Below, one piece after another: positions 36,394-57,378 of a stretch of 64,000 nucleotides of DNA. A program made the position numbers and the translations under genes. The notes below the pieces were generated by a model. The model searched no databases, was not told the origin of the DNA, and was given only the letters and a program-made list of their open reading frames with translations. Each line of letters starts with the position of its first letter. Position 1 is the first letter of the stretch. Source of the stretch: Schmidtea polychroa (taxonomy: Eukaryota); assembly GCA_044892525.1 (NCBI GenBank), contig CM097886.1:100192001-100256000 (forward strand). The letters run 5' to 3'.

Positions 36394-36399
36394 AATAAA
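36394..36399 (+). terminator. Candidate polyadenylation signal AATAAA in the LTR
   Basis: AATAAA followed by a T/G-rich tract, about 400 bp before the LTR end. Confidence 0.5.
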
Positions 36400-36809: not shown

Positions 36810-36827
36810 TGGGGGCTCAGCCGGGAT
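36810..36827 (+). other. Primer-binding site, tRNA-Pro type
   Basis: TGGGGGCTCAGCCGGGAT matches the canonical tRNA-Pro PBS TGGGGGCTCGTCCGGGAT at 16/18, 7 nt downstream of the 5' LTR. Confidence 0.85.
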
Positions 36828-37262: not shown

Positions 37263-37742
37263 ATGTCAGAAGCTAGACAACATCTACAACAGCTAAGCCG
37301 GTTCGTCGAAATAGAAAATGATTCAATAAAAACATTAAGGGAAAAACTGAAACAAATAGAACTGCTAGAACGACAAAGCCACAACGCACCGCTGATATCC
37401 AAACAAAACTTTCTAACCGACAGATTAGGATCAACAAATACCGATACCGACTTGTCTATTCATTACCAATGGTTTCAGCAACGTCTCGACGACCCCGCTC
37501 TGAACATCGAATATGTGAGGATACGCGAACAAGTCAAAACTTTGTCTCAGCGGATACGAACATCAATAGTAGAGAAAGCAGCGGCCTTGAGAACTTGTAA
37601 CATTTGCAAGATGCGACCTGTCAAAATTCTGATTCTACCTTGTGGGCACCTTAGCCATTGTGACGAATGCGCCGCCAGTTTAATCCGTTGTTCTATGTGC
37701 ACATGTGTAATAAAAGAGAAGCACACAATCTACTTCAGTTAG
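37263..37742 (+). CDS. 159-aa coiled-coil protein with C-terminal IAP/MDM2-type C3HC4 RING (putative E3 ligase)
   Basis: CNICKMRPVKILILPCGHLSHCDECAASLIRCSMC...IYFS-stop. No BIR domain seen. Confidence 0.85.
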   Translation: MSEARQHLQQLSRFVEIENDSIKTLREKLKQIELLERQSHNAPLISKQNFLTDRLGSTNTDTDLSIHYQWFQQRLDDPALNIEYVRIREQVKTLSQRIRTSIVEKAAALRTCNICKMRPVKILILPCGHLSHCDECAASLIRCSMCTCVIKEKHTIYFS

Positions 37743-38323
37743 GTACGCGATCGTCGCTCGGTGAAGGAAATTGGATGATTGACAATTAGATTAAACATTT
37801 TGATATTTTTGTTCTGATTTAATTCGGTAATGTTTTATAATGATAGCATATATTATCTGTAATGTGGAGTAAATAACTAATAAATCCTTTTTGTGTATTC
37901 ATTTCATTATACGAAGTTATAAATTGATTTGTGTTGTTATAATTTTCACCATGAAGAAAGGGCATTTTAAAAATTTAAATTGATTATTTAAAGTGGAACT
38001 AGTCCCATCATAGTGTTAAAGGGGGAATAAACCGAGCCACCTTCGGGAGGTACGATATTGGAACCATTTGGGAAGGGACAACCGATCACCCCGAGTAAGA
38101 GATGTAAGGCGAGGTACCATCGCGAATATTGAAAAGTTTCTGCGGTATGGCTGATCACCATACCAATGTAGAAATGGATCAATGCGATCGTTTTGCGTTT
38201 TGAGCAAGGGGGGAAAGGGGAAACCTGCCAAAGCGGTACAGATTAAGTCGACAAATAAAAGTAAAAATAGGAAGACGACAGTATAGAATAAAGACAGAGA
38301 AGGAACGGAAGCATGCAGAGTTT

Positions 38324-39005
38324 AGAGATATTAAGGCCGAGCTGTTGAAAAGTCCAGCCGGTCAGGGAAATTGAAACTGAGCTGTGAAAAGTCCAGCCAG
38401 TCGGAGATATTAAGGCCGAGCTGTTGAAAAGTCCAGCCGGTCAGAAAAATTAAAACTGAGCTGTGAAAAGTCCAGCCAGTCAGAGATATTAAGGCCGAGC
38501 TGTTGAAAAGTCCAGCCGGTCAGGGAAATTGAAACTGAGCTGTGAAAAGTCCAGCCAGTCGGAGATATTAAGGCCGAGCTGTTGAAAAGTCCAGCCGGTC
38601 AGGGAAATTGAAACTGAGCTGTGAAAAGTCCAGCCAGTCAGAGATATTAAGGCCGAGCTGTTGAAAAGTCCAGCCGGTCAGGGAAATTGAAACTGAGCTG
38701 TGAAAAGTCCAGCCAGCCGGAGATATTAAGATCGAGTTGTTGAATAGTCCAACCGGTCAGGAGAAGAAGATTGAGCTGTCGAGAAGTCCAGCCGGTCAGG
38801 AAAAATTAAAACTGAGCTGTGAAAAGTCCAGCCAGTTCGGAGATGAAGAAGATTGAGCTGTTGAATAGTGCCAGCCAGTCGTAAGGCCGAGCTGTTGAAA
38901 AGTCCAGCCGGTCAAGAAAAATTAAAACTGAGCTGTGAAAAGTCCAGCCAGTTCGGAGATGAAGAAGATTGAGCTGTTGAAAAGTGCCAGCCAGTCGTAA
39001 AGGCC
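38324..39005. repeat. Tandem array of alternating 40/39-bp subunits (79-bp dimer), about 17 subunits, degenerating at the 3' end
   Basis: Core GAGCTGT(T)GAAAAGTCCAGCC in every subunit. Confidence 0.95.
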
Positions 39006-40229
39006 TAAAGTAATAGTGAGATAGCATTCAAGCTACAAGTTGATAACATTTAAATTACTAGGGAGATGGAATATTAAAGCTAGCTAGAAGCAAATTGAGT
39101 TTGAAATATGGTATTTGAATTTAGAAAGGATTAAACGAGCTCGTGGGAGGTAATAATGAAATTTTTTTTTCAGTGAGAAAGAGAAACTGAAAAGGAAAAT
39201 GAATTAAAGAGATAATGAAAATAAAGAATAAGTGAGAATAAATGATGAGTAAAAGAGGAAGGTGATTAATTAATTAAAAGGGATCCCAGATGAGTAGACA
39301 AAGTTCTACAGAATTTTTTTGGTTTAAACCGGTTAAACGAATTTTGTTTTGGTTACAGAGTAGAACCAAATAAGGGGAAACAGAGATGAAAGATTAAGTA
39401 AAATAGCGGAACCGCGTAAAAGGATTAAGAAAATATGGGAGGTAATAAGCAGTAACTGACAACGACCTATCGATATTATAAATGCTAACTATAGATAATT
39501 TATACGACTATATAGATAATTGTTACTACCCCAAATAGATAATTTAAAATCGACGAAAAATATGGGTTGATGGGTAATTATATTCCGCGAAGAAGCGTAT
39601 GAGGGGAAATGAAGAGAAGTATAACAGAGGCCCTAAAACGGTGTCTGTGCTTGAATGTGGCAAAAAGGAATGATTGATTCGTGTAAGCAAAGGCAACACG
39701 ATATCATATTTTCATTGTAGACATCAATCCAACCAAGTCAATTCAGAACCAGCTCAAGAGGAATCCAGGGAATATACAAACAACCCAGGAAAAGCAATTC
39801 AGAACCCGCACAAAGGAAAACAATATCAGAACCGAACTCGACCAATTCCGCAGACGCTAACCGTAGAAAAACCCACGTGAAAAGACAGAAAAGAGTAAAA
39901 GGAAAATCACGGATAAACCCAACCTTAGATCTTCAAGTAAGCCAGGGGACGTATTATTTTCAGGAGACGAATTAGATCAACTCAAAAGAGGACGATCATT
40001 TAGGCAGCAGAGAGGAATATCACAAGGAGCAAAAAGACCCCACAAAACACCGATATACGATCAAGAAAACCCCACAGCCGGACATACGCCCAGTCGATCT
40101 AGAAGTAGAGAAAGTCTATCCGATATAACAAACAACCTAACCGGGTCAACAGAAGAATTATCCGTCCATAGTTTAGCTACATCACTAGAAAATTTAAAAG
40201 AAATAATAGCATTTCAAGAACCAATCAAG

Positions 40230-42398
40230 ATGAATGTAGCAAAAACCGACGAATATAAAGAAAAATTTAGAGGCGAACCGTTCAACGGGAATGCGAACAA
40301 GTTGGCAACGTTCATAACAAATTTTGAAGTCTATATCGATGTGTGTGGATGGACATCAGAAGCAATTAGCAAACGGATGCCGTTGTTTTTATGTGATAGC
40401 GCACTCGAAGTGTATCTAGAAGCAAAAGAAAGAAATACGAAATTAGACAATTGGGAAAACATCAAAACATTTTTGAGAAAAACATTCGGAGCCAGCAAAC
40501 CGATAAATCAAGCGTTAGGTGAACTGGCAAGTAGAAAACAAAGAGCAAACGAGTCAATTACGTTATACGCAAGTGAATTGCGAAGATTGGCAAAGAAGGC
40601 CATGAACGGAAACTTGCCGGAGGAAAATTTAATTGGTTACTTCATAGAAGGACTGCGCCGAGAAGAGGTAAGGGCCTCGGTGGGATGTCAAATGTGTAAA
40701 ACACTAGAAGAAGCTATAGATTGGGCCACAAGATGCGAACTACACCTCCCGGCACAAATGAATGTCATGCAAGAGGAGGGAAGAATCGCAACAGCAACGG
40801 TGAAAACGGAAAATGGAGATAACAATAATCATGAACCAAAGATGAATCAGTTTATACCAGGTGCGCATCAAATTTTCAAACCACCACAAGGACGATCAAA
40901 CGGGAATAACAGTGAACGCAACAACTCGAACAATGGGAACAACTTTAATAATCGACGAAATATGAACGATAACAAACAATGCCGAACATGCGGTAAACCA
41001 GGACATTGGGATAGAGATTGTTACCGAAACGCAAATTGCAATAGGTGTGGACGACGAGGACACACGGAAAATATATGCCAATCGAGAGGATGTTTTAACT
41101 GCGGGCAACCAGGTCATATCTCAAGAGACTGTCGAGAAAGGAGCCAACAGCAACGACCACCACAGCGAAATAATAACTATGCACCAAATCCGCAACGACA
41201 AAGTAATCCTAGTGAGGGAAAGCAAATGAATGTGATGCAAGAAATTTCACAAATGAAGCAGATGATGCAACAAATGATGAGACCGAGACAAGAGCAAGTA
41301 CCACAACAAACCCAGAATATACGCATGATGAGAAGCACCGAGAATCTTAACAATTATGAAGTGCAACAACATGCACAAGAATGGCAAAGATTACAAGCTG
41401 AAGAAGAGAGGATAAAAAGAGAGCGAATTCAGCAGCGACAAGAACAACCACTACGAATAAATATGATGAGGATGGTAAAGGAGATAAAGGAGCAATATTG
41501 TTACAACTATGGTAAAAATCCAAGAGTTGTACCTACGAGCGAACCAGAGAAACCGAAGGAAACAATTACAGCAGCAAAAAAGGAAAATTCAACAACACCG
41601 CTAAAAGGAAATCAGAGAATTCAGAAAATATTTTGGAAAAAGATAAAAGATAAAATCGAAAGAGAAAATGAGAAAACAAAAACAGAAGCAGAAGCAGAGA
41701 ATAACGAAAATGAAAAACAGATTAATCATCTAAGTCATGATATGATACGAGAATTAGACTCAGAGGAGCTAACGATATTCGAGAACAAAAAGTTAAAGAA
41801 AGTACCAAGAATGAGAAATTTACGAATTAATATGATGAGGACAACAAAGACGGTGTTGTCAACAGATGACGATGAGGATTATGTGAGTAGCCTTGGTGGA
41901 GAAATGTTACAGTTAAATGAAAATATCGACCAACTAAGAGAGAAGATCGGAACAGAGGAAGAAGAGAGTGAAAGCGACGTAACAAGCGAAAGCGAAGACG
42001 AGAATATCGAAATGAAATTGAGAAAAGAAAGAGAAGAATCGATAAAACAAGTAAAGGAAATACTTCCAGTGGTGGTAAGAAACCAGGAATTCATTGACAT
42101 CATACCATACCGACGCTTCATACAAAAGATAATGAAACTAGAAAGAAACGAAAAAGACCTAATACCAAACGAGGAAAAAGTGATAATAAAGAAGTATATG
42201 GAAAAAATGAAACAAGCGGAGACAACACGGTATGTAATAAAAATCGGAACGAGTAAAGGGCTCGAGAGAATATGGATAAAAAGCAGTCACAGACGACCTT
42301 TTCGATTGGATAAGAGAACATTTGGGCAGCTCGAGAAAGAAAGAATACCTGTATCAATATCAAGGAGAACAAATCAAACCAGACATGCACCTAATTGA
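40230..42398 (+). CDS. gag: Gag: capsid-like region, three CCHC zinc knuckles, Q/N-rich and acidic extensions; the frame is open from 39867
   Basis: PFNGNANKLATFITNFE...GW; RKQRANESITLYASELRRLA; CRTCGKPGHWDRDC, CNRCGRRGHTENIC, CFNCGQPGHISRDC. Confidence 0.93.
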   Translation: MNVAKTDEYKEKFRGEPFNGNANKLATFITNFEVYIDVCGWTSEAISKRMPLFLCDSALEVYLEAKERNTKLDNWENIKTFLRKTFGASKPINQALGELASRKQRANESITLYASELRRLAKKAMNGNLPEENLIGYFIEGLRREEVRASVGCQMCKTLEEAIDWATRCELHLPAQMNVMQEEGRIATATVKTENGDNNNHEPKMNQFIPGAHQIFKPPQGRSNGNNSERNNSNNGNNFNNRRNMNDNKQCRTCGKPGHWDRDCYRNANCNRCGRRGHTENICQSRGCFNCGQPGHISRDCRERSQQQRPPQRNNNYAPNPQRQSNPSEGKQMNVMQEISQMKQMMQQMMRPRQEQVPQQTQNIRMMRSTENLNNYEVQQHAQEWQRLQAEEERIKRERIQQRQEQPLRINMMRMVKEIKEQYCYNYGKNPRVVPTSEPEKPKETITAAKKENSTTPLKGNQRIQKIFWKKIKDKIERENEKTKTEAEAENNENEKQINHLSHDMIRELDSEELTIFENKKLKKVPRMRNLRINMMRTTKTVLSTDDDEDYVSSLGGEMLQLNENIDQLREKIGTEEEESESDVTSESEDENIEMKLRKEREESIKQVKEILPVVVRNQEFIDIIPYRRFIQKIMKLERNEKDLIPNEEKVIIKKYMEKMKQAETTRYVIKIGTSKGLERIWIKSSHRRPFRLDKRTFGQLEKERIPVSISRRTNQTRHAPN

Positions 42399-45300
42399 TG
42401 CATTGATCTGGCCAGGAGAAATTCAAATATTGAAATTGTATAAAGAGAAGCAACCAGCAAATATTCACGAATGGGCTAAAGACGCCAAGGCCGAGTATGA
42501 CTTTAACATCAAGCTGAAGCTGGACCAAATAAAACAATGCACCTTGCGACGAAATCTAGATAAATTAATCAAGCAAATCCAAGAACAAGTTGAGGATAAC
42601 TGGGATTTGCTCATAACAAGACGAACTGCAGACATGCATGAGCTAATGAGCCGATTACGAGATACAGAATTGCTCAGGATGAGTGATTGGAGAACCATAA
42701 ATTTGATCCACAAATACGGAAGATTAAAAGAAACGCAACCGCAGAAATTAGAAATAACCATATGGTTACCAAACGAGGAGAAACGACGAATAAAGATGAG
42801 TAATCAGAGTACGGTGGATGACTTAGTAACCAAGATAAACCAAGAGATAACGGAAAAAGTACGAAGCGAGAGTAACGACGGGATGATAGATGATGTAGTC
42901 ATGATGTACGATAAAATAATACTACGGGCCGAAGACGACACCTCGCTAAGCGAAATGGGAATATGGGATAATCATCAAATCATCAGAATATTGCCCATGG
43001 ACGAATTCCGAACAAGAGATATAACATACCAGAAAGAAATACGAGACAGGATGAAAACGCTATATCAAAAATCAGTAGAGATAATTGAAATTCATCAACA
43101 GTGGCTAAAAGAAAAAGAGCTTCAAGGAAAAATAAAGAAACTAAGTGTTAGATCCTGCAGACGAACCCCATGGGAAAGGATGTGGGATGCGGAAAGCAAA
43201 GAATGGGAAATCAGGAAAGGGATTTTCGTGGAAACAGACATTGGCGAGATAGAAAGCGAACCAGAAGAAGAGGAAGATGAACCTCCAAAATACGAAGAGG
43301 ACGAAATAGAATCGACATCGGACGACGAAAGCGAAACGGATGTCACATCAGAAAGTGAAACGGAAACCAGACATATTCATGCGATGAGGAAGAAAGAACG
43401 CGAATACGCCGATATGGACAGCGAAGAAGCGATGGAAGCTCGAGAACGAGAAGAGAAGGAAAGATATAAACAATTAGGTGATATCTTAGCAACGGGAACA
43501 AAAAATCAAAAACGTCAAGTAATAGCATTGGCTAACATCATCCTAAAGACATCAGAGAATATCCACAATCTAAGAGAAATGGCGAAAGCGATTGAGGAAT
43601 ACCGACAATATAACGAATGGTACCCAGAACAGCTAGAACAAATTATTAGGAAATGGAGAAACCAAGAATGGGCACAAGATACCCAGGAAAGGTATCGTAT
43701 CCGAGTCAAATATCCCGACAAAAGCATTGAGGATACAGAAGTACATCCAACAACAAAAATCAGAGAGTTAAAAAAGAAATTAGCATACGAAACTCCATTT
43801 CACCTACAACTATTCGGAAAATCGTTGGATGATAATGTAGATGTCGGAATAACACCCATGAGATTGGGGGAGATCAATGTATTGACAATGGCAGAAACAT
43901 TGGGAAAACCGATTAAAAGGAAGAGCAAATCCAGTAAACCTACGAAAGGTAGCTTGAGTACACCAAGCCCTAACAAAGTGGCAAGTAAATCGAATGAAAC
44001 CGAGGAAATCGAGGAAATTATATTGGAAGACAGCGATGAAGGAGCTGGAGAAAGATCACCAATTCTGGTAAGATGGCCGACAGGAGCCGAAATATGGACA
44101 ACAAGCCAACCGTCAACTAGCCATCAGCAGCCAAATAAGCTAAGTATCGAGGAGATTATCGATAATACAACAGAAACCGAAACCGACGAACAATTCCAAC
44201 GACAGAAAGGACCAACGAAAGCAACACCAGAAGGTCAAACCGACAAAATAATAGACGAATGGAACGAATGGCTGAGAAACAACGATAGCTCATTACCAAG
44301 AACGGATAACGAGAGAAACCCGAATTATGAAAATACAAGGGAAGCCGGAACAATGATGGAGAAACGGGCAAAAGGGAGACCCAAGAAGCAAGGAGAAAAA
44401 CCGGAATTTAAAACCCGAGAACAGTTGAAGCAAGAACAAGGACAAGTCAGATTAGAGAAACTGGATAAAATAGTGTGGGATCTAAAAGAGGCCCTGCCAA
44501 CTATCGAAAGAGGCGAAAAATGGATACGAGAGCTAGTAAAAGATATGTTAATAGTAACAAACCCGCAATTGAGACGGTTATGGCAACGAAAAGTAGCAAG
44601 CGTAGACGCCAGACAACTATGGAATACAATATCCGGAATAATTCCGAAATTAATCAAAGAGAAGACAAAAACCACTAAAACCGATTGGGAAGAGACAAGA
44701 AGAGTAATTGAACAATTAACGTTAAACGCAAACGACGACGAACATCATTTAGTAGTATTAACGTATCTAATGTACAATTTGATGGGATTAGCAGCAAGGA
44801 AAATACCTAACAAACAATTCGCAAATCATGTAGAAATGACCGTTACAATCATTGAAAATACAATCGAACCACATATTATCCGCGCCGGTGGGTGGAAAAG
44901 ACTCATACAAGCGCCACGAAAAAACGAGCAAGAGAGATCAATGCAAATTCGGTTGAAGAAATTACTAAACGAGCTAGAATGGGAATTGCCATTGAAAGAC
45001 CCAGCCAGCAGAAAAGCGTCGATTAATTCACTAATGATGACCATGATGATATGGATGCTCTGCACCAGTGGAGCCGCGGGATTTACTATTTACGACTGTG
45101 ACAATTCGATAATAGGAGAAAGATACTCCCTGAGAGATATAGAGGAATGTAGACAGGCATCTCCGAATAAATTAGATATAGTAAAAAAGAAAGTCTCCTA
45201 TCACGTATACCAAGAATCAGATTTCATTAGAACGCAAGCTAGAGAATGCGTAGTATCGAAGAAAGTGTTGGCATATTACTGTGGACAATATTCATATTCA

Positions 45301-48300: not shown

Positions 48301-51300
48301 CTAGATGCACAAGTGATCGAACCAAGTTGTTCGCCATGGCAATTTCCAGTAGTCATGGTGAAGAAAAAAGACGGTACTCAGAGATTCTGTATCGATTATC
48401 GGAAATTAAATGCAGTAACAAAAAGAGACACATACCCTTTACCAGACATCAATGAGATGTTACTTATGTTACAGGGGGCCGCATATTTTACATCTTTAGA
48501 TCTGAAAAGTGGATATTGGCAGATCAAAGTCAAGGAGGAAGACAAAGAGAAAACAGCATTCACATTGGGCCGAGATCTATACCAATTCAGGAAAATGCCG
48601 TTCGGACTGACCAATGCCCCAGCATCATTCCAGAGATGTATGAATTTTGTCACACACGGGATCAAGCAGTGTATGGTATATATTGATGATTTATTAATAT
48701 ATTCAGCAACTTTCGAACAACATTTGGAAGACATTAGAAACGTGTTCATCCGATTACGACAATGGAAATTGAAACTCAAACCATCCAAATGTGATTGGGC
48801 AAAAGAAAAAGTTACGTTCTTAGGACACATAGTGTCAGCAAAAGGCAAAGAACCAGATCCAAGAAACATAGAAAAAATAAAAACATGTCCAGCACCAAAA
48901 ACTGTCACCCAAGTTCAAGAATTTCTCGGATTATGCGGATATTATCGAAAATTCATCAAAAACTATGCAGGTATTGCGAAACCAATACAGGAATTAGTGA
49001 AAAAGGATATTTCATTTATTTGGGGTGCAGAACAACAAAAAGCGTTTGAGACATTGCGAGATAAATTAATTGAAGCCCCAATACTAGTACATCCTGATTT
49101 CAAGAAACCGTTCTTATTAGCAACAGATGCAAGTGGATATGCAGCCGGAGCAATATTGGGACAACTCGACGAAGAAGGAAAAGAAAGAGTGATTGGATAC
49201 TACAGTAGAACGTTTAAAAAGCATGAGAAAAACTATTCCGTAACCGAGAGAGAAGCGTTAGCAATCATACAAGCGATTAAACATTTTCGATATTTGTTAT
49301 GGGGACACGAAATATGTATCACCACGGATCACCAACCATTAGTATGGCTTGGTCAACACAAAGAAGCCTCAAGTAGATTGATGCGATGGGCAATGCAGTT
49401 ACAAGAATATTCACCGTTCATAAAATTCAAAGCGGGAAGAGCGAATGCCAATGCGGATTGTATGTCCAGATTTATCTTTCCAGATTTAGTAGATCACGAA
49501 ATGCAACGAATATGTCTGATGGTAGCAGAAGATTTAGATTTTTGCCAATTACGGAAAGACCAACAAGAGGATACAGAGTTGAAGCAAATCATTGAATATG
49601 TGAAAACAGGGAAAGCAGAGGTATATGAGAAAGATCAAAAATTGAAGGAGCATATGGATAAACATCGACATCGATATATTATCGAGAAGGATTGGTTATT
49701 GATAATGGATGGCGAGAAAAGACTGATGTGCATTCCCGAGAATAGACGTAAAGATCTACTAACACAATACCATGACGGAAGACTCGGAGGACATATGTCA
49801 TCTAAAAAGACGTTGGCACGAATGAAACAAAAGTATTTTTGGCCTACATTGACCGAGGATGTAACGGAATGGGTGAAAAATTGCATAACTTGCGCAACCA
49901 GAAAAAACACGGGAACAAAATGGAAGGCACCATTAAAGCCAATGCCAGTACCAGCGGAACCAATGACAATGATATCAATGGACGTAGTCGGTCCATTACC
50001 AGAATCAGATAGAGGGAATATATATATATTGGTGATTACGGATTATTTGACGAAATTCCCCGAAGCATTCGCAATGGCAGATCAGAAAGCAAGAACAATC
50101 GCAAAAATACTAGTAGAGGAGATATGCTGTCGATATGGAACACCGAAACAGATACTAACTGATCAAGGGACAAATTTCATGAGCGAAATAACGAGCGAAG
50201 TCACCAACTACTTCAAGATCGCAAAATTAAGAACATCACCGTACCATCCACAAACTAATGGGATGACAGAAAGATTCAATGGAACACTGATTCATATGTT
50301 ATCAAATTATGTCGATCGTCATCAACGCGACTGGGACGAGTATATAAAATTATGTTTAATGGCTTACAGAATGTCGATTCACGCGTCCACAAAGATGAGT
50401 CCGTTTAAGTTGATGTACGGTAGAGAATGCAATATGCCAATGGATTTAGAATATCAGCCACCAATATCACAATACATGGAAATAGACGATTATGTAACCA
50501 AGTTCAAGGAAAGAATGCAGGAAATCTGGGAAACTGCAGGATTGAATATAAAATTTTATCAAGAAAGTTACAAAGAGTTACATGATAGAAAGAAAAACGT
50601 CAAACAGCATACGTTTCAAACGGGCGATTGGGTGATGATCGAAACACCAGAATTAATTCCAGGAACCACCAAAAAATTACAACGAAACGGCAAAGGTCCG
50701 TATGAGATTCTATTCATCGGAGAAACCAATGTGAGAGTACGATTAGTGAACAACCCTTTTACAAGACCAATATACGTAAATGTTGCACGATGTAAGCCAA
50801 TACCGAAAACAGCCACCAGCCAGCCGGAAGGGCGAACCTTAACCACAAGATCACAAACATATAGAATAAACATGTTACAGCAGATAAACGAACCAACAGG
50901 TAATCGATTAGGGTTACAACCATCAGAAGCCGAGAAAATCATAAAGGAAGTAAAAGTTAAAATGCCCGGATGGGCAAAAGACAGATTAGATTTTGAGATA
51001 TTGGGCGGTCTGCTAACAATGATCGAAAATTATGCAAACCGAGAAAGAACACACCCATTACTTAGGGTAGTAAAAAGTCAATGGCCTATATTATTTACGA
51101 TCACAGACCATTATGGAGATACACCGCTGCACAAACTTTTAAAGGTCGGGAATAATGAACAAATACTGGAAACGATCGAAGCATTTCGCGACTGTAACAT
51201 TTCGACGGATCAAGAAAATAACCAAGGTTACACCCCACTAATGATAGCAGCCAATCGGGATAAAGCTAAAGATATTATCATCGCATTACTCGAAACTGGG

Positions 51301-54099
51301 TCAAAGATAACCACGCAAGACCACAACCAGAAAAATGCACTACATCATGCAATCGAAGGGAAAAGTACGGAAGCCTTCATAATCTTAGTAGATCTATTAG
51401 CATATGAGGATAATAGGGAGATAGGAAACATGTATGACGGGTTACTAACTGCAATCAAAGAGAGATTAATAACAATTGCTGGATTACTAATTGCATGGAG
51501 AAACCCGATAAAAAACGATTATATGGTAGATATAAACGAAACATTTACCAAAGGAGAAAACACCTTGATGAGAGAAGCGATGAGAGGACACCACCTATTC
51601 GAAATTCCAAATCAACTACTACAACGTGGCATAAAGTTCTCAAATCACAAAGACGAACAACTAATCAGAAAACGAATTACCAACTTCGAAAAAGCTATAT
51701 CTCAATTTACCGATAAAGTACAAGTAAAATTTTGGGAAACCGTGAGTGTTTTACATATGATGGAAACTATGAACAACATTCGAGAAAACTACCTAAGTAT
51801 TATTCAAGTTCTAATGGCGGAGGAACGCATTAACAGTTCGAACAAGAAAAAGATAAAAATAAAGAAAGTAAAAGCAAGAGAGTCTGGGGAACAAGTCGAT
51901 CAACCAATAACCGATATAGCAACAACAAATAAACCAAAGACAATAAACTCCGACCAAGAGATAGTAGTACGTAAGGCTAAAGAAGTATTCTTTGAAGAAA
52001 TGCAAGATCTATCCGATGAAGCGATACTAGCAAAAATAACCAAAACAGTACACACCTACGCAAGAGATCAGACCACGAATCTAGACATAGGAAAAATAAA
52101 AACATTTATACCACTAGCATTCACCTTACCAACAAAAGACTCAAGAACACCATTACAACAAGCCATTTTAGCAGCAAAAGAAAACAGAGCAATAACCATC
52201 ATAAGAATCCTCAGAGACTTCGGAGAAGAATCTAATGCAAAAAATGAACAAGGAGAAACAGCAATGATGTATGCAGCCATAACAAATATACACCCGAAAA
52301 CATTACATATACTACATCGATCGGGATCAAGACTGGATGAAATATCAAACGAAGGAAATTCTACCATGGATTGGGCAACGATACAACCAAACTTGGAAAT
52401 GATTAGATTCATTTGTAAAAATGCTACAAGAACCGAGGTAGAAAATATCTGTAAAAACACGTCACAGTTCCAATGGAACACGATACGGATGAACTTAGAA
52501 GCCATGAAGTTATTGGTAACATGGAGAATACCACAAAGCAATAAATATGCAATAAATATAAATGAGTTCTACGAAAACGGAGAAAATGCGATGGTTAAAA
52601 ATACACTAACAAAAGGAGGAACTCCGAAAATCATAATGATCGTATTGAACAGGGAGGACCTCAAATTCACGCAAAATCTAAACGAACAAAAGCGAATCGG
52701 AAAACATCGCCGTATACAATTGAGAGAACTGGTAAAAGAATGGAATAGAAAGAGACATGTAGCAACAGGCAGAAAGGAGTTCGAATTCGAGGCAAAATTA
52801 GCAAGAAACAGAGTGCTAACGGCATACCACAGATTGTTGAATGATATAAATGTCGAGGACGACATTTTAAACGATAGCGGGGGAGATAAAGACGATAAAG
52901 ACGACGATAATAATGAAAAAGGTCGAAACGGGAATAAAGAGAAAGAGAAATCAGAGGGGAATAATCAAGAAAATAACAACGCGAGTAGGAAAAAAGAAGA
53001 AAACAACCCGAGAAACCGAATAAAGCAAGAAGAAAAGACGAATAGTGGAAAACAGAGGGTATGTCTACTTTTTACCAACAAAGAAATGGAGACAAATATG
53101 ATGATAATGATACTCGTATTAACAATGGTGGAAATGATAACAGCCCAGGGAGGAATGAGAACGATAAAAGAAGCCAAAGAAACGGAAAATAAGGACAACA
53201 AAGAGGAAGAACTAAAACAAGAAAAGAAAAAACAAGTACAAGAGCAGCAATGGGATTTAAAAGAAGAATGGGATTTAAAAGAAAGGTGTATATTAGGAAG
53301 ATGTATGTCTAGAGCTTATCAGAGACTAGTGTTAAAAAATGAAGATGCAGAACCAATAACGGAAGTAAGAATACAAGAAGCATATCGAAATCGAGACGGA
53401 AAGAGAATAACGAAAGTCAAAGGGAAGGAGGTACATCTGGGAAAAGGAGGTGAGGTAGTGATAACGCAACTCCAGCCAAGAAAAGAACACAAAGTCTGCA
53501 TTGCAAGATTAAGACCGGGGGAAGACTGTCTACAATATGTAATACAGCAACAACCTCCAAAAGAATACACAATATGCATCTGGAGAAAAGATACAGCGAG
53601 AGAATGTCGACGATACCCTGGGAAAAGAGGGAAGAAAAGAAAAATCGATGATGGAAAAGATGAGCAAGGAAAACGCAAGAAAAACAGTGAGAAACATCAA
53701 GACAATTATGTATCCGAGGAGGAGATGGAGAAAATACAAAAAATGGCAAAGGAAGGTATGAACGAGGAAATAGCAAGAATACGAGGAATGATGAAAGGAA
53801 ATGGCAAAGACGGTAATCTAAAAAGCACAGAAGCAATATCAACACTAACGAGCAAGGAAAAAGCGGAAGTTATAAGCGTAAAACAGATGATGTGGATCAG
53901 CGGCATAATAATAACAGGGGCCTTTTTAATCATAACGGGGGGGACAATAAAAATAATCAAAGATAGACGGCATCGCGGAGAACTAGAAATGGCCAGAATA
54001 AGAAATTTTCAACATCGTGTAAAACGACCAAGTAATATCAAGCAGGAACAGTGGGTGGAGGCCTGGAATGCTCAGCTCCCTCCAAGCTCACGTATATAG
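42322..54099 (+). CDS. pol: 3925-aa polyprotein (+1 frame relative to gag, open from 42280): UBL domains, Bcl-2-like, Env, PR, dUTPase-like, RT, RNase H, IN, ankyrins, C-terminal membrane protein
   Basis: Uninterrupted 11.8-kb ORF with MIDTGANVS, YIDD, ATDASGYA, HX4H...CX2C, MDVVGPLP, TDQGTNF, PQTNGMTERFN and GPY. Confidence 0.95.
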   Translation: MGSSRKKEYLYQYQGEQIKPDMHLIDALIWPGEIQILKLYKEKQPANIHEWAKDAKAEYDFNIKLKLDQIKQCTLRRNLDKLIKQIQEQVEDNWDLLITRRTADMHELMSRLRDTELLRMSDWRTINLIHKYGRLKETQPQKLEITIWLPNEEKRRIKMSNQSTVDDLVTKINQEITEKVRSESNDGMIDDVVMMYDKIILRAEDDTSLSEMGIWDNHQIIRILPMDEFRTRDITYQKEIRDRMKTLYQKSVEIIEIHQQWLKEKELQGKIKKLSVRSCRRTPWERMWDAESKEWEIRKGIFVETDIGEIESEPEEEEDEPPKYEEDEIESTSDDESETDVTSESETETRHIHAMRKKEREYADMDSEEAMEAREREEKERYKQLGDILATGTKNQKRQVIALANIILKTSENIHNLREMAKAIEEYRQYNEWYPEQLEQIIRKWRNQEWAQDTQERYRIRVKYPDKSIEDTEVHPTTKIRELKKKLAYETPFHLQLFGKSLDDNVDVGITPMRLGEINVLTMAETLGKPIKRKSKSSKPTKGSLSTPSPNKVASKSNETEEIEEIILEDSDEGAGERSPILVRWPTGAEIWTTSQPSTSHQQPNKLSIEEIIDNTTETETDEQFQRQKGPTKATPEGQTDKIIDEWNEWLRNNDSSLPRTDNERNPNYENTREAGTMMEKRAKGRPKKQGEKPEFKTREQLKQEQGQVRLEKLDKIVWDLKEALPTIERGEKWIRELVKDMLIVTNPQLRRLWQRKVASVDARQLWNTISGIIPKLIKEKTKTTKTDWEETRRVIEQLTLNANDDEHHLVVLTYLMYNLMGLAARKIPNKQFANHVEMTVTIIENTIEPHIIRAGGWKRLIQAPRKNEQERSMQIRLKKLLNELEWELPLKDPASRKASINSLMMTMMIWMLCTSGAAGFTIYDCDNSIIGERYSLRDIEECRQASPNKLDIVKKKVSYHVYQESDFIRTQARECVVSKKVLAYYCGQYSYSTLILPGLDKEIVPIQREDCKELFRTGAMRIRDGVTIHGQSGMIKTESIYVAGRVKSTDGSCNGGTYTIRGEVISGVVVIESYTVELKEYEAQFDANNYQMKTNPACRATENVCRTGISTIIYEANTQKCRLQLLKSALFNEVKGEIYENEDDDEENGNVRMRNGKPVPPSPKEKRLITQKTPTALITDDPDIGMRFIREKETTKCDSIVYRTNYAGIYMSRQVIDRAVGKVATEDVKLYLYANNKMDFLFHRGQTTMQKVYYDLIQNDCSLNKEILKTKLAIAITHPDNTMPSLPLPDGHFGRMVGEVMYTYACTKTFARLPRKPTIPPGKCANELEISYKGRNRFVQPVTRIMNPIGFYPNTFNCSNAYGPLYEKPDGKWIMLPVKTEVQEPKKFGLIELATEQDFKPIDVSKAGMYSPEDLETARLNVLFPARRESILSNMVTITGGTNFQSGPNYELLLSPDHFQQATSNMMKAMWGRFLVFGQMMTGILGIILIIQIVRVILTQMLACFDIYKREKKVNWKLIVGFLPFLAKTMVLHGHSKDIHRIKRLIKILTKIKGTDEEVGRRFRKTMYDEATRTQLKKNKPKFLDRFRNRSNSSDSDDDDNGNDKYPYPSRNPNEKPIETAPYWEKEKTNTWIANGSYIPPDIVGQQTALTMTQNMYPQLPSQPGMNYMPTRRTKSVDQADDVRTIAVMSSPGGAAVTVMIQINGKETSAMIDTGANVSAIAINQIPSKCWKDIEQTTIHIIACSKETVDVVGRWWTTLRYQDNEIETYLAVIPKLSEPCIIGTDLMPELFKEVVIDLTTMCLKDKMGRICKMNAIIRCPEKIIVPAKSQMICQIKVDAGMEGEVIFEPSKSFEKRRELPLAREIITINEDGEIPINITNFEEEDKIIYENERLGRLTPMIDIELPKITNETTKADELWIIDSTLLTEKEKERLQQLLIEYKDIFAISDLDLGACDVTLHAIPLIDETPIALRPYKLAEKQKEIAEAEVQKMLDAQVIEPSCSPWQFPVVMVKKKDGTQRFCIDYRKLNAVTKRDTYPLPDINEMLLMLQGAAYFTSLDLKSGYWQIKVKEEDKEKTAFTLGRDLYQFRKMPFGLTNAPASFQRCMNFVTHGIKQCMVYIDDLLIYSATFEQHLEDIRNVFIRLRQWKLKLKPSKCDWAKEKVTFLGHIVSAKGKEPDPRNIEKIKTCPAPKTVTQVQEFLGLCGYYRKFIKNYAGIAKPIQELVKKDISFIWGAEQQKAFETLRDKLIEAPILVHPDFKKPFLLATDASGYAAGAILGQLDEEGKERVIGYYSRTFKKHEKNYSVTEREALAIIQAIKHFRYLLWGHEICITTDHQPLVWLGQHKEASSRLMRWAMQLQEYSPFIKFKAGRANANADCMSRFIFPDLVDHEMQRICLMVAEDLDFCQLRKDQQEDTELKQIIEYVKTGKAEVYEKDQKLKEHMDKHRHRYIIEKDWLLIMDGEKRLMCIPENRRKDLLTQYHDGRLGGHMSSKKTLARMKQKYFWPTLTEDVTEWVKNCITCATRKNTGTKWKAPLKPMPVPAEPMTMISMDVVGPLPESDRGNIYILVITDYLTKFPEAFAMADQKARTIAKILVEEICCRYGTPKQILTDQGTNFMSEITSEVTNYFKIAKLRTSPYHPQTNGMTERFNGTLIHMLSNYVDRHQRDWDEYIKLCLMAYRMSIHASTKMSPFKLMYGRECNMPMDLEYQPPISQYMEIDDYVTKFKERMQEIWETAGLNIKFYQESYKELHDRKKNVKQHTFQTGDWVMIETPELIPGTTKKLQRNGKGPYEILFIGETNVRVRLVNNPFTRPIYVNVARCKPIPKTATSQPEGRTLTTRSQTYRINMLQQINEPTGNRLGLQPSEAEKIIKEVKVKMPGWAKDRLDFEILGGLLTMIENYANRERTHPLLRVVKSQWPILFTITDHYGDTPLHKLLKVGNNEQILETIEAFRDCNISTDQENNQGYTPLMIAANRDKAKDIIIALLETGSKITTQDHNQKNALHHAIEGKSTEAFIILVDLLAYEDNREIGNMYDGLLTAIKERLITIAGLLIAWRNPIKNDYMVDINETFTKGENTLMREAMRGHHLFEIPNQLLQRGIKFSNHKDEQLIRKRITNFEKAISQFTDKVQVKFWETVSVLHMMETMNNIRENYLSIIQVLMAEERINSSNKKKIKIKKVKARESGEQVDQPITDIATTNKPKTINSDQEIVVRKAKEVFFEEMQDLSDEAILAKITKTVHTYARDQTTNLDIGKIKTFIPLAFTLPTKDSRTPLQQAILAAKENRAITIIRILRDFGEESNAKNEQGETAMMYAAITNIHPKTLHILHRSGSRLDEISNEGNSTMDWATIQPNLEMIRFICKNATRTEVENICKNTSQFQWNTIRMNLEAMKLLVTWRIPQSNKYAININEFYENGENAMVKNTLTKGGTPKIIMIVLNREDLKFTQNLNEQKRIGKHRRIQLRELVKEWNRKRHVATGRKEFEFEAKLARNRVLTAYHRLLNDINVEDDILNDSGGDKDDKDDDNNEKGRNGNKEKEKSEGNNQENNNASRKKEENNPRNRIKQEEKTNSGKQRVCLLFTNKEMETNMMIMILVLTMVEMITAQGGMRTIKEAKETENKDNKEEELKQEKKKQVQEQQWDLKEEWDLKERCILGRCMSRAYQRLVLKNEDAEPITEVRIQEAYRNRDGKRITKVKGKEVHLGKGGEVVITQLQPRKEHKVCIARLRPGEDCLQYVIQQQPPKEYTICIWRKDTARECRRYPGKRGKKRKIDDGKDEQGKRKKNSEKHQDNYVSEEEMEKIQKMAKEGMNEEIARIRGMMKGNGKDGNLKSTEAISTLTSKEKAEVISVKQMMWISGIIITGAFLIITGGTIKIIKDRRHRGELEMARIRNFQHRVKRPSNIKQEQWVEAWNAQLPPSSRI
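44452..44910 (+). other. Bcl-2-like domain within the polyprotein
   Basis: BH2-like IENTIEPHIIRAGGWKRLI and a hydrophobic BH1-position helix HLVVLTYLMYNL. NWGR is absent. Confidence 0.65.
45031..46920 (+). other. env: Env glycoprotein (chuvirus-G/herpes gB-like class III fusogen): signal peptide 45031-45081, ectodomain, TM about 46750-46830
   Basis: AG/FTIYDC, YSLRDIEEC, ECVVSKKVLAYYCGQYS, DCKEL, DGSCNGG, a Cys-rich ectodomain and FGQMMTGILGIILIIQIVRVIL match the chuvirus glycoprotein-like pattern. Confidence 0.8.
47410..47710 (+). other. Aspartic protease domain
   Basis: INGKETSAMIDTGANVSAI ... CIIGTDL. Confidence 0.93.
48140..49470 (+). other. Reverse transcriptase and RNase H domains
   Basis: SPWQFPVVMVKKKDG, RFCIDYRKLN, LDLKSGYWQI, MPFGLTNAPASFQR, VYIDD; TDASG, EREALAI, TDHQPL. 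Confidence 0.97.
49720..50730 (+). other. Integrase (HHCC, DDE, GPY/F)
   Basis: HDGRLGGH ... CITC; ISMDVVGP; LTDQG; ERFNGTL; KGPYEI. Confidence 0.97.
51100..52620 (+). other. Two ankyrin-repeat modules downstream of integrase
   Basis: YGDTPLHKLL, QGYTPLMIAA, QKNALHHAI; RTPLQQAI, QGETAMMYAA, EGNSTMDWAT. Confidence 0.85.
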
Positions 54100-54267
54100 A
54101 AAGGATTATGACTGTATATAGATTGTAAAAAGTAAGTAGGTAATATTTATTTATATAACAGTATGCTATATTTTTATATAAGCGCGGTATCAATAGTATA
54201 TAATGATGGGGATAATTAATATGAAAATAAAATTAGATAAGGATTGAAAAGTATATATAAATTAAGA

Positions 54268-54627
54268 ATGGAGCGAATAGGCGAGGAAGTAAATCACAGT
54301 ACAACAACCGAGGAGATGTGGAAACAACAATGTGCAATGTTAACTCAAGTGATTTCGAATTTACAGGAACAAGGACTCGCTGTACAAAGAAGCTTAGTCG
54401 AAAGTTTAAATAAAGGCTTCAGTTATGTAAGAATAATCGAAGACCAACGAATAAAAATAGAACAAATGCAGCGAGAGATAGACCGAATATCACGATACAG
54501 CCAGGTGCAAGAAGAGGAGTTAATAAGAATCGCGGAAGAGATGGAGCGAGAGGAGATAGAAGACTGGTCGGAATGGTTAACCAGCAGGGAAGAGGGCGGA
54601 CAAGAGGCCGACTCTTCCAGCCAATAA
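54268..54627 (+). CDS. Small acidic coiled-coil protein (about 119 aa from ATG 54268)
   Basis: Intact ORF with E/Q/R-rich heptad pattern, bounded by AT-rich spacers. Confidence 0.6.
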   Translation: MERIGEEVNHSTTTEEMWKQQCAMLTQVISNLQEQGLAVQRSLVESLNKGFSYVRIIEDQRIKIEQMQREIDRISRYSQVQEEELIRIAEEMEREEIEDWSEWLTSREEGGQEADSSSQ

Positions 54628-54716
54628 ACATAACCTAAAATAACAATGTAAATAACTGTAAATAAAAATACGAAACTGTACCAGTAACGAATATATGTAT
54701 ATATATAATTATAGAA

Positions 54717-56105
54717 ATGGATAAGCGACAACGAGAAGAACTCAAAGAAATTGTTGAACAAGTCAGAAAGTCCACCACAATTCGAATACACAACCATGTA
54801 ACGTGTGGAATATGCAAGAGCTTATTAAGAGAACCTCACCAAACCAGATGTGGATGCAGAATGTGCAGAGAATGTGTAGAGGAGATAATAAAGAAGGGAC
54901 CACAATGGTGCCCGGTATGCAAAGAAACAATGATAACAAGTTTGGGAGATACAAACGAAGATAAAGCAGCTGTAAAAGATATGTTGAATGCAAACCTTGG
55001 ATGCAAAAACACCCCATGTAATTGGCGAGGAGTGATATGGGAAGTGAGGCAACATTTGGAGCAATGTGAATATAAAATCAGTCAATGCAAACGTTGCCAA
55101 GAAGAGATTAAAGTCAATGAAGAAGCAGAACATCAAAGTCGATGCGAAGAAAGACTGGAGAAATGTGAGTATTGCGGAGAAACCGACACCTGGAAAAAAC
55201 TAATCAGTCAACATCACAACATACAAGAGGAGAAAGTGTGCGCAGAATTCAGAGGAGAATGCCCCAACAAATGCGATAAACCCGGAGTAATAAAACTCGC
55301 TCAACATCTGAAAGAATGTGAAAGGAAAAAGATAAGGTGTGTGTTAGGAAAATGGGGAAATCAGAAACAATTACACCGAGGGGAATTACCCCAACACCTA
55401 GCAGAAAACGTATCAACACACGCGGAAATATGGTCAACGGTATTACAAGAAAACGAAAGGAAAACCGAAAACTTAGAAAGAGAAATAGTCTCGCTAAAAG
55501 CGTTGGTAAAAGAACTATTGGAAGAAAAAGAAGCATTTGAAGAGGCGAGAACAAGTACAAAGATACAGACAGATCTAGTAGAAACTAGCAACATTATGGT
55601 AAAAGAACTACATCAAAAAGTAAGCGAATTAAACCTCAACGAATTAATACCTACGGCCCCATACATATGGAAAATAACGGGAGTAAAAGAGAAGATGCAG
55701 AGAGCGAGAAATGGAAAGGATACGACCTTACTAAGTCCAGCATTCTACTCATGGAAAAACGGGTATAAAATGAAAATGAAAGCATACCCCAATGGGGATG
55801 GAAGTGCATACGGAACGCATTTCTCAGTATTCTTCTTGATGTGCAAAGGGCCACACGACGAGTTAATAGAATGGCCATTCAAAGCAAAAATAGACCTCGC
55901 AATGATGAACTATCAAAATATACATGAACAGAGTTTCCATACAGCGGGAAACCTCGTATGTTACCAAAGGCCCTTGGAAGAAGAAGGACCAGCAACTGGA
56001 GCACCGAATTTCATCCTACAGCGGAAAGTAGAAGACATGACGAAAAACGACACTATATACATAAAAATAGCGGTGAGGCGAGACGGGAAGAGTAGGACTG
56101 AGTAG
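54717..56105 (+). CDS. TRAF: Full-length intronless TRAF (RING, TRAF zinc fingers, coiled coil, MATH/TRAF-C domain), 462 aa
   Basis: CGICKSLLREPHQTRCGCRMCREC...CPVC; HLEQC, HQSRC, HLKEC fingers; YIWKI, LSPAFY, GYKMKMKAYPNGDG, THFSVFF, DELIEWPF, NDTIYIKIAV. Confidence 0.95.
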   Translation: MDKRQREELKEIVEQVRKSTTIRIHNHVTCGICKSLLREPHQTRCGCRMCRECVEEIIKKGPQWCPVCKETMITSLGDTNEDKAAVKDMLNANLGCKNTPCNWRGVIWEVRQHLEQCEYKISQCKRCQEEIKVNEEAEHQSRCEERLEKCEYCGETDTWKKLISQHHNIQEEKVCAEFRGECPNKCDKPGVIKLAQHLKECERKKIRCVLGKWGNQKQLHRGELPQHLAENVSTHAEIWSTVLQENERKTENLEREIVSLKALVKELLEEKEAFEEARTSTKIQTDLVETSNIMVKELHQKVSELNLNELIPTAPYIWKITGVKEKMQRARNGKDTTLLSPAFYSWKNGYKMKMKAYPNGDGSAYGTHFSVFFLMCKGPHDELIEWPFKAKIDLAMMNYQNIHEQSFHTAGNLVCYQRPLEEEGPATGAPNFILQRKVEDMTKNDTIYIKIAVRRDGKSRTE

Positions 56106-56324
56106 AGAGACGAATAATTTTGTATATACTAATTGTAGATATCGGCGTATATATCCAGTAAAATATTATATAGTAGTGTAGAAAAATTCCCCCAAATCTA
56201 CTAAAGGTAAACTTAAGCGAAAAACTCCTAAAACAACTCCTATAACGAATTGTAAAAATAAATAAAAAATAAGCCAAATATAAGCGTACAACGTTGAGTT
56301 AATAATATCATTGTTCAGATCAAG

Positions 56325-57362
56325 ATGACACAAGAAGGAACTGAAGCCCCAAACCACGAAACCAAAGTCAATAAAATCCATAAGGGAAAATGGGTCAAAG
56401 TAATGTTACAATTGACGAACCAGACCCGCAACCACCTCGAAGAGGCCAGGGAATACGAGAATAACAAATATCAGTGGTTAGTAAACAATTTAAGAGCCGA
56501 AGCAGAAGCATGCAAAAGAGCCTCTAAGTGGGCATCATTGGAAAACACTCGCCAAGAAGCGCACAGCCACTATTTAAAACAGTTAGTTCAGGAAGCACGG
56601 AAACGATTGACGGACGAAAACACAAAACGAGAAGCAGAAAAACAAAAGGAAGGAAGGAAAATGAATCACCTATTGGCAGAAGCCCGAAACTGGAAGCGGC
56701 AGAACAAAGAGATGAAAAAAGAAATGAAAGAATTGCCTATGAGATTAGAATACGAAAGCGAACAAGGCAAATGGGAGGAAAATCTGGTCATAAGAGAAGA
56801 ACTGAAACGGCTCAGAAAGATTGCGGCCCGAAGCCAAACATGGCAGACCAAAGCCATGGAATTTGAAAGACATCTAGCCATGAAAATCTCCATAAGGGAG
56901 CACGAGAATGCCGCAATGGAAGAACTGATACTTCAACAGTCAGGACGACTCGTGGAACTGGTAAATAAGGTCGCCGAACTAGAACGAGATGTCAACGGAT
57001 ACCAAGGAGCTCTGGAGCAGAGAAATATGGTACTGGCGGGGAAAAACAAAAAGTTAGAAAACGAAAGGAAAATGTATAACGAAAATCTCAAAAATCTGGA
57101 GATAGAGATCAAGAAATGGGAAAACGGCGAAAAAGCGGAAGAGCTAGAAAAACAGATAGAGGTAAGAGACGATGAAACCAGGTATCTAACATACCTGTTG
57201 GACGAGGAACTTAACGTGTCAAGAGCACTAAGAGACGAAGTGCAAGAACTTAGAGCGCAGATTCCCCGGTACTACATACCATTTGATCCCATCGCACTCC
57301 AATTACAAACGTCAGTAGAAAGCGATGAGGGATATGTAGGCCAGGAAGAGACCTTTGTATAA
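56325..57362 (+). CDS. 345-aa coiled-coil protein of unknown function
   Basis: Long intact ORF, E/K/L-rich heptads. Confidence 0.7.
   Translation: MTQEGTEAPNHETKVNKIHKGKWVKVMLQLTNQTRNHLEEAREYENNKYQWLVNNLRAEAEACKRASKWASLENTRQEAHSHYLKQLVQEARKRLTDENTKREAEKQKEGRKMNHLLAEARNWKRQNKEMKKEMKELPMRLEYESEQGKWEENLVIREELKRLRKIAARSQTWQTKAMEFERHLAMKISIREHENAAMEELILQQSGRLVELVNKVAELERDVNGYQGALEQRNMVLAGKNKKLENERKMYNENLKNLEIEIKKWENGEKAEELEKQIEVRDDETRYLTYLLDEELNVSRALRDEVQELRAQIPRYYIPFDPIALQLQTSVESDEGYVGQEETFV

Positions 57363-57376: not shown

Positions 57377-57378
<2 letters not shown>

What the first reader, a model, noticed from the sequence alone, without database searches (positions are those of the whole stretch)
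37263..56105. Coherent cargo of cell-death / ubiquitin / TRAF-pathway modulators on one retroelement
Seen: an IAP-type RING ORF, ubiquitin-like domains, a Bcl-2-like domain, ankyrin repeats and a complete TRAF. Established: IAP RING ligases, TRAFs, Bcl-2 proteins and IkB-like ankyrins all act in TNFR/TLR, NF-kB and apoptosis control, and large DNA viruses (poxviruses, baculoviruses, polydnaviruses) carry mimics of several of them. Inference: the element may suppress death or innate signalling of infected cells, a large-DNA-virus strategy in an LTR retroelement.
Basis: inference. Interest (0 to 1): 0.9.

Follow-up and report, generated by a model that had tools for sequence, protein, structure and literature searches.

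The report
BIR-less Burro giant retrotransposon with cargo
This is a real, recently inserted 31-kb retrovirus-like jumping gene of a kind already described in planarian flatworms, and its cell-death- and ubiquitin-type cargo genes are conserved across its copies and likely help it persist in host cells, although it lacks the one anti-death gene reported as tested in its best-studied relative.

Summary
The cargo lies in one 30.8-kb Ty3/gypsy element (32558-63403) with 4.2-kb LTRs differing by 3 substitutions. IAP-type RING, full TRAF and two ankyrin arrays are confirmed by sequence; two ubiquitin-like folds and a Bcl-2 fold by predicted structure only. At least 80 copies carry RING and TRAF in this layout.

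It is not new. The same cargo and the same idea were published for planarian Burro elements in 2019, and Burro1's BIR-RING gene is reported (read second-hand) to protect stem cells. The scan noted a Burro element elsewhere in this genome.

What differs: this family has no BIR, so it lacks that tested gene, which a sister family in the same genome carries. Its RING lacks the linchpin arginine, its Bcl-2 fold lacks BH1, and planarians lack clear NF-kB. Damping of death or stress signalling is likely but unproven; the IkB/NF-kB part is unsupported.

The parts
32558..36802 (+). 5' LTR, 4,245 bp, TG...CA; preceded by target-site duplication ATAT (32554-32557)
35502..36263 (+). 253-codon ORF inside the LTR (second copy 62103-62864), no Pfam family
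36810..36827 (+). probable primer-binding site; likeness to tRNA-Pro is recalled, not tested
   Evidence: sequence
37263..37742 (+). 159-aa ORF: helical N-terminal part plus C-terminal IAP-type RING, no BIR; linchpin Arg position holds Thr
   Evidence: dN/dS 0.145
38325..38996 (+). tandem array, 79-bp unit, 8.5 copies, in the leader
39867..42398 (+). gag (Retrotrans_gag, three CCHC knuckles); separated from pol here by a frameshift seen in this copy and in none of 20 others
42736..43002 (+). ubiquitin-like (beta-grasp) domain 1, predicted fold
   Evidence: dN/dS 0.045
43687..43905 (+). ubiquitin-like domain 2, predicted fold
   Evidence: dN/dS 0.074
44497..44919 (+). Bcl-2-fold domain; keeps BH2-type GGW, lacks BH1 NWGR
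   Evidence: dN/dS 0.034
45028..46914 (+). probable signal peptide and env: Monjiviricetes-type fusion glycoprotein with C-terminal transmembrane helix, in frame between cargo and protease
   Evidence: dN/dS 0.030
47380..50814 (+). protease, reverse transcriptase, RNase H, integrase in Ty3/gypsy order
   Evidence: RT dN/dS 0.014
51070..51654 (+). ankyrin array 1
   Evidence: dN/dS 0.050
52105..52689 (+). ankyrin array 2
   Evidence: dN/dS 0.083
53080..54099 (+). C-terminal part with two hydrophobic helices, likely a type I membrane protein of unknown family
54241..54627 (+). 128-codon ORF, helical, conserved in sister families
54717..56105 (+). intronless full-length TRAF (RING, zinc fingers, coiled coil, MATH), 462 aa
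   Evidence: dN/dS 0.119
56298..58963 (+). three further ORFs (56298-57362, 57568-58272 charged and helical; 58310-58963 with two hydrophobic helices), no family over cut-off
59195..63403 (+). 3' LTR, 4,209 bp; followed by ATAT (63404-63407)

Best explanation
This is a young copy of a Burro-type, env-bearing giant Ty3/gypsy retroelement whose captured RING, ubiquitin-like, Bcl-2-fold, ankyrin and TRAF modules are conserved across copies and likely act as accessory proteins that damp death or stress signalling in the cell that expresses the element. Shown: architecture, copy number, folds (two of them by prediction), selection, and absence of BIR. Inferred: gag, cargo, env and pol are made as one polyprotein of about 4,735 residues threaded through the ER membrane at the env signal peptide and transmembrane helix; the element's protease would release the ubiquitin-like, Bcl-2-fold and ankyrin units at a recurring motif; TRAF and the RING protein are made from separate ORFs. 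Most likely targets (inferred) are the host TRAF/TAK1/MAPK/TBK1 and mitochondrial death pathways rather than NF-kB, and by binding or competition rather than by direct caspase inhibition, since there is no BIR. The benefit would go first to the element, whose productive cells survive long enough to make new copies.
For: LTRs, TSD and domain order. Match to the published Burro layout feature by feature (PMC6431247 section 7). 4 of 20 fetched copies have one uninterrupted ORF of 4,732-4,736 codons. dN/dS over 21 copies: Bcl-2-like 0.034 (95% bootstrap 0.019-0.057), Ubl1 0.045, Ubl2 0.074, ANK1 0.050, ANK2 0.083, TRAF 0.119, RING ORF 0.145 (0.10-0.20), against 0.47-1.00 in 12 non-coding pseudo-frames; variants shared by several copies are more constrained than private ones in nearly all domains and no shared stop was seen. 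Cargo is kept in a sister family with 88% RT identity, and a Bcl-2-like domain before env recurs in a third, distant family (Pfam E 1.7e-5). Burro1's BIR-RING gene is reported to protect stem cells from caspase-mediated death (PMC13465017 passages). The recurring motif also falls at the protease and integrase borders.
Against: No functional or firm expression data here. The only cargo gene reported as tested (B-IAP) is absent from this family. The RING lacks the linchpin Arg in all 50 family-level alignments that covered it (the 50 include the same loci fetched twice). The Bcl-2 fold lacks BH1 NWGR, which host Bcl-2 genes keep, so BH3 binding is doubtful. Unannotated linkers show dN/dS 0.07-0.20, so constraint is not special to the named domains. 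The cleavage motif pattern was written after seeing the sequence, so its shuffle test (16 against a mean of 3.5) is circular in part. Copies were found through RING and TRAF hits, which favours intact RING and TRAF.
Confidence: 0.55

Rival explanations
1. The cargo serves the particle's own life cycle (assembly, membrane trafficking, budding, control of the polyprotein's turnover) and does not act on cell death or immunity.
For: Ubl, Bcl-2-fold and ankyrin units are in frame with Gag, Env and Pol and would be made one to one with them; Bcl-2-like constraint (0.034) equals Env and capsid (0.03); BH1 and the RING linchpin are missing; the Bcl-2 fold is also used by poxviral proteins that are not death inhibitors (A52, B14, K7-type rows; their functions are recalled).
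Against: A separate full-length TRAF and an IAP-type RING have no obvious structural role; the sister family adds a true BIR-RING gene beside its TRAF, with a reported anti-apoptotic effect.
Confidence: 0.2
2. Host-beneficial mutualism as reported for Burro1: the family is tolerated because its cargo improves stem-cell survival and regeneration.
For: Reported for Burro1 (PMC13465017, second-hand); this family shares all other cargo and is young and numerous.
Against: The gene credited with that effect is missing here. Individual insertions decay: 16 of 20 fetched copies and the window copy have a broken polyprotein, as expected of selection on replicating lineages rather than on fixed host loci. 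RNAi of BURRO1 did not rescue smedwi-2 knockdown (PMC8532177 passage), which is neutral on this point.
Confidence: 0.12
3. The BIR-less RING and the TRAF are competitors or partners of host IAP/TRAF ligases or of the sister family's B-IAP, acting as heterodimer partners or dominant negatives, possibly promoting death or release rather than survival.
For: RING keeps the zinc ligands and C-terminal aromatic tail of IAP RINGs but lacks BIR and the linchpin Arg; a BIR-RING-bearing sister family with at least 150 scored BIR matches coexists in the genome. That RING-only IAP fragments can degrade IAPs is recalled, not checked.
Against: No binding test was run; XIAP structures matched are active ligases and, from recall, also lack that Arg; the sister family keeps a BIR-less RING ORF of its own in the same position.
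Confidence: 0.1
4. The cargo is neutral passenger DNA captured by chance.
For: None found.
Against: dN/dS 0.03-0.15 against 0.47-1.00 for non-coding control; retention across families that differ by 55-75% in these proteins.
Confidence: 0.03

Closest known systems
Burro / GYPSM1 giant gypsy-like LTR retrotransposons of dugesiid planarians (Jurka 2007 and Grohme et al. 2018 as described in PMC6431247)
   Same: Over 30 kb with multi-kb LTRs; one ORF of about 4,700-5,100 aa at family level; Gag with CCHC knuckles; ubiquitin-like, BCL2-like, env between BCL2 and protease; ankyrins; TRAF/MATH; tandem repeats.
   Different: No BIR; no MATH inside the polyprotein; TRAF is a separate downstream ORF; two ankyrin arrays. 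Whether it is the orthologue of Burro-2, -3 or -4 could not be checked, as Grohme et al. and the reference sequences are not held.
Burro1 and its B-IAP gene (Lee et al., Dev Cell 2026, known only through PMC13465017)
   Same: A family with the Burro1 layout is in this genome (L128-L130): colinear, RT 88%, env 60%, Bcl-2-like 34%, TRAF 32%, upstream RING ORF 26% identical to the window's.
   Different: That family has a MATH domain between the two Ubl domains and a 393-aa BIR-RING gene after TRAF; the window's family has neither. The window's RING ORF corresponds by position and full-length similarity to the BIR-less upstream ORF, not to B-IAP.
Accessory genes of large DNA viruses (poxviral Bcl-2-fold proteins, baculoviral IAPs, polydnaviral ankyrins)
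   Same: Same folds carried by a mobile element; viral Bcl-2-fold proteins appear among the structural matches (BHRF1 Z 11.0, A179L 11.0, A52 8.1).
   Different: Analogy only. No sequence link to viral proteins was found; the TRAF groups with non-Burro TRAFs of the same genome. The IAP and ankyrin comparisons rest on recall.

Membership tests
Burro-type giant gypsy elements | Total length above 30 kb with very long LTRs | tested here: met
   30,846 bp; LTRs 4,245 and 4,209 bp
Burro-type giant gypsy elements | Single Gag-to-Pol polyprotein of about 4,800-5,100 aa | tested here: met
   4 of 20 other copies have 4,732-4,736 open codons; the window copy is split by a private frameshift
Burro-type giant gypsy elements | Fusion-glycoprotein env in frame between BCL2-like domain and protease | tested here: met
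   PF24664 E 4e-71 between them
Burro-type giant gypsy elements | Ubiquitin/SUMO-like, BCL2-like, ankyrin and MATH/TRAF cargo | tested here: met
Burro-type giant gypsy elements | dUTPase-like region between protease and RT | tested here: inconclusive
   A conserved 120-aa region is there (68% to the sister family) but has no Pfam hit
Burro-type giant gypsy elements | Sequence identity to reference Burro1-4 | not testable with these tools
   Reference sequences and the primary paper are not held
Burro1 proper | BIR-RING (B-IAP) gene and MATH within ORF1 | tested here: not met
   B-IAP of the sister family matches the window only over the RING part; no BIR or in-ORF MATH
IAP proteins | At least one BIR domain | tested here: not met
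IAP proteins | C-terminal IAP-type RING | tested here: met
   Best PDB matches cIAP1/2, XIAP, same ligand spacing; linchpin Arg absent
TRAF proteins | RING, zinc fingers, coiled coil, MATH in order | tested here: met
   (coiled coil judged from alignment to TRAF2/3 stretches and sequence)
Bcl-2 family | Bcl-2 helical fold | tested here: met
   Predicted model, Z 12.0, 34 Bcl-2-fold rows ahead of any unrelated row
Bcl-2 family | BH1 NWGR motif of BH3-binding members | tested here: not met
   Absent in all 6 aligned element sequences; present in host Bcl-2 genes L161, L164, L168
Bcl-2 family | BH3 binding and death inhibition | not testable with these tools
   Needs binding and cell assays
IkB-like ankyrin proteins | Specific similarity to IkB ankyrin domains and an NF-kB target in the host | tested here: inconclusive
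   Generic ankyrins lead; Bcl-3 row 52 of 60 shown for array 1, no IkB among 60 shown of 117 for array 2; no clear planarian NF-kB (PMC13563047)

The most novel reading that the evidence does not exclude
Burro families in one genome divide or contest control of the death pathway: this BIR-less family survives either through an ER-anchored, BH1-less Bcl-2-fold protein plus TRAF that silence stress signalling without touching caspases, or by using its linchpin-less RING as a heterodimer partner that borrows or disables the sister family's B-IAP and host IAPs.
Probability: 0.15. Interest if true: 0.65.

Novelty: new member of a known kind. Interest (0 to 1): 0.3.

Why it matters
The general claim, a retroelement with a large-DNA-virus style kit of apoptosis and ubiquitin modulators, is already in print for Burro. 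What this locus adds is quantitative support that each module is under selection, structural support for the Bcl-2 and ubiquitin-like calls that rested on weak profile matches, and a natural contrast: two young, high-copy sister families in one genome, one with and one without the BIR-RING gene. That contrast makes it testable whether B-IAP alone explains Burro's success and reported benefit to stem cells, or whether TRAF and the Bcl-2 fold do so independently. It also warns that counts and RNAi studies of planarian TRAF, IAP and Bcl-2 genes may include element-borne copies.

Tried and rejected
Primary papers not held: Lee et al. 2026 and Grohme et al. 2018; their text and supplements may already describe BIR-less families or selection on cargo. 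Word-seeded search of polyprotein residues 140-900: no hit among 7,384 candidates, limited to proteins of 2,166-6,894 aa. Profile of the Bcl-2-like domain against 1.84 billion representatives: 2 hits, both repeat proteins matching short stretches, rejected. PDB sequence searches for Bcl-2-like and Ubl domains: nothing significant (Bcl-xL E 1.9, ubiquitin variants E 0.24). ESM Atlas: no usable hit for the Bcl-2-like domain or the C-terminal membrane part. Expression: no RNA holder listed; runs only guessed to be RNA cover 30, 25 and 13 of 30 bins, not counted as evidence. Rel homology domain search of the genome found nothing, but nothing rang in controls either, so it is not evidence. FN3-like reading of the C-terminal part: no Pfam hit in the window, weak hit (E 0.05-0.14) in a distant family, no significant pairwise match. 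Programmed gag-pol frameshifting rejected: the split is private to this copy. No complex prediction was sent: a RING-RING pair would tend to pass by likeness to solved structures, and no clear host pro-death BH3 partner was in hand. Word search of earlier findings for the full phrase and a sequence search with TRAF found nothing.
Full report
What is there. The finding lies inside one LTR element spanning 32558-63403 (30,846 bp). Its LTRs are 4,245 and 4,209 bp, begin TG and end CA, differ by 3 substitutions and 4 gaps, and are flanked by ATAT on both sides, so the insertion is very recent. Internally, on the + strand: a 159-aa RING ORF, a 79-bp tandem array, gag, a 3,939-codon ORF, a short ORF, a TRAF and three more ORFs. 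Pfam places protease, RT, RNase H and integrase in Ty3/gypsy order and a Monjiviricetes-type fusion glycoprotein (E 4e-71) in frame ahead of the protease.

Observation check. RING: E 3e-8 in Pfam, and 10 of 11 PDB matches are IAP RINGs. TRAF: RING, zinc fingers and MATH match human TRAFs over the length. Ankyrins: two arrays over cut-off. The ubiquitin-like and Bcl-2-like calls are below cut-off by sequence, so I folded them from shallow alignments of natural copies. The Bcl-2-like model (pLDDT 67.6, 5 sequences) has Bcl-2-fold proteins in the first 34 of 50 listed rows, best Z 12.0, first unrelated row 5.7. The tool warns that helical models can reach such Z by chance, but the uniform list and the gap below it argue against that, and a distant family has Pfam Bcl-2 at E 1.7e-5 in the same position before env. 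The Ubl model is weaker (pLDDT 55); both domains align to beta-grasp proteins at Z about 8.4-8.5.

Copies and selection. The own genome gave 92 scored TRAF matches at 91-100% identity and 150 scored RING matches, both lower bounds. 80 of the 92 TRAFs have a RING ORF 16.5-19 kb upstream, judged against 121 of the 150 RING rows (family-level rows). I fetched 20 of these paired loci, chosen to span divergence (90-98% nucleotide identity). Four have one open frame of 4,732-4,736 codons; 16 carry stops or frameshifts; the window's gag/pol split is found in none of the 20. Pairwise dN/dS over the 21 copies: Bcl-2-like 0.034, Ubl1 0.045, ANK1 0.050, Ubl2 0.074, ANK2 0.083, TRAF 0.119, RING ORF 0.145; env 0.030, RT 0.014; three linkers 0.07-0.20; twelve non-coding pseudo-frames 0.47-1.00 (per-domain split). 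The cargo is therefore neither neutral nor single-copy. Limits: copies were found through RING and TRAF, copies are related and appear recombined, and linkers are constrained too, so selection says the proteins matter to the element, not what they do.

Comparison with what is known. PMC6431247 (section 7 read whole) describes planarian Burro elements: over 30 kb, a 4,873-aa ORF1 with Gag, MATH, ubiquitin/SUMO-like, BCL2-like, env between BCL2 and protease, ankyrins, BIR, and concludes that Burro may meddle with host apoptosis and ubiquitination. PMC13465017 (passages) reports from Lee et al. 2026 that Burro1's BIR-RING region protects stem cells from caspase-mediated death. I could not read Lee et al. 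or Grohme et al.. PMC8532177 (passages) shows BURRO1 de-repression after piwi loss. PMC11410931 (one passage) mentions Burro only in passing. The host is thus likely a planarian, inferred from the element. Searches of the library (listings) showed no paper on a BIR-less Burro family or on dN/dS of Burro cargo, but the two primary papers were outside the library.

How this family differs. A genome search for BIR returned 150 scored matches, mostly in 392-393-codon ORFs. One such element (L128-L130) is colinear with the window's, RT 88% identical, and has the published Burro1 layout: MATH inside the polyprotein and a BIR-RING gene after TRAF. That BIR-RING protein matches the window only over its RING end. 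Of six divergent loci fetched, two were full-length members of a nearer subfamily (RT 98%, TRAF 69%) that also lack BIR, one was the Burro1 type, one joined a fragment of each, and two were fragments. The window's RING ORF corresponds to a BIR-less upstream ORF that the Burro1 type also has (26% over the full length). So the one cargo gene reported as tested is missing here. Whether it was gained there or lost here is unresolved; 9.9 kb downstream of a third, distant family showed neither TRAF nor BIR but was interrupted by other elements.

Details that bear on mechanism. The RING keeps IAP ligand spacing and a terminal aromatic tail but has Thr, Val or Ala where cIAP has the linchpin Arg (the role of that residue is recalled). 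The Bcl-2 fold keeps GGW but not NWGR, which host Bcl-2 genes have. The ankyrins show no IkB preference, and planarians lack clear NF-kB: seven divergent RHD genes, none a confident homologue (PMC13563047 passages; PMC4484250 passages, report loss in flatworms), whereas TAK1, p38, JNK, XIAP and TRAF2 act in infection-driven tissue loss (PMC4993586 passages; review PMC7958881 passages). In a MATH tree of 48 rows (29 of 30 non-Burro loci, one dropped for a stop; 11 partial outgroup rows), the 8 Burro rows form one group (95/82) inside a 99/99 group with 8 non-Burro rows, several of them long single-ORF TRAFs, apart from a cluster of short-ORF, probably intron-split TRAFs. The tool flagged long branches and no root test was run, so capture from a host TRAF is likely, not shown. 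A hydrophobic stretch between the Bcl-2 fold and env could serve as env signal peptide and, before cleavage, as a tail anchor (sequence; inference).

Verdict. Real, selected, and a Burro-type element; not Burro1 and not an IAP carrier. Damping of death or stress signalling for the element's benefit is the most likely function (0.55), with particle biology (0.2), host mutualism (0.12) and RING competition (0.1) as rivals. Novelty is that of a new member of a known kind; interest 0.3, chiefly for the natural with-and-without-BIR contrast.

Noticed in passing
window 53080-54099: The polyprotein ends in a likely second type I membrane protein (hydrophobic stretch, cysteine-containing beta-rich part, transmembrane helix, tail), weakly conserved in the Burro1-type family; a distant family has a weak FN3 match at the like place.
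   Followed up: partly
window 35502-36263 and 62103-62864: A 253-codon ORF inside each LTR, with 29-38% identical counterparts in sister families and no Pfam family.
   Followed up: partly
L169 and L171 (G000:C1:113809400-113825400): A third, distant gypsy family with a roughly 3,050-codon ORF has the same Bcl-2-like, signal peptide, env order but different 3' cargo, including a 777-codon ORF without Pfam family; dozens of such Bcl-2 matches lie in long ORFs.
   Followed up: partly
L170 and about 40 similar rows: Multi-copy Bcl-2-like sequence with one in-frame TAG in most copies; a repeat family or processed copies, unexplained.
   Followed up: no
L131-L134, L136, L142: Long single-ORF TRAFs outside recognised Burro copies group with Burro TRAFs; L142 lies beside Burro-like LTR-ORF and RING similarity. 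Element-borne TRAFs may inflate the reported planarian TRAF expansion (PMC6109357 passages), though a separate host cluster exists.
   Followed up: partly
L161-L167 (G000:C4:89.9-90.8 Mb): Seven near-identical host-type Bcl-2 genes in one region.
   Followed up: no
window 21871-28711: Two 2.36-kb inverted copies, 99.8% identical, of a hAT-type transposase fragment, 2.1 kb apart.
   Followed up: no
window 14754-20876: A decayed minus-strand LTR element with 91-bp direct repeats and a weak aspartyl protease match.
   Followed up: no
window 29200-32205: A DUF4371 (hAT-related) ORF on the minus strand beside the element's 5' end.
   Followed up: no
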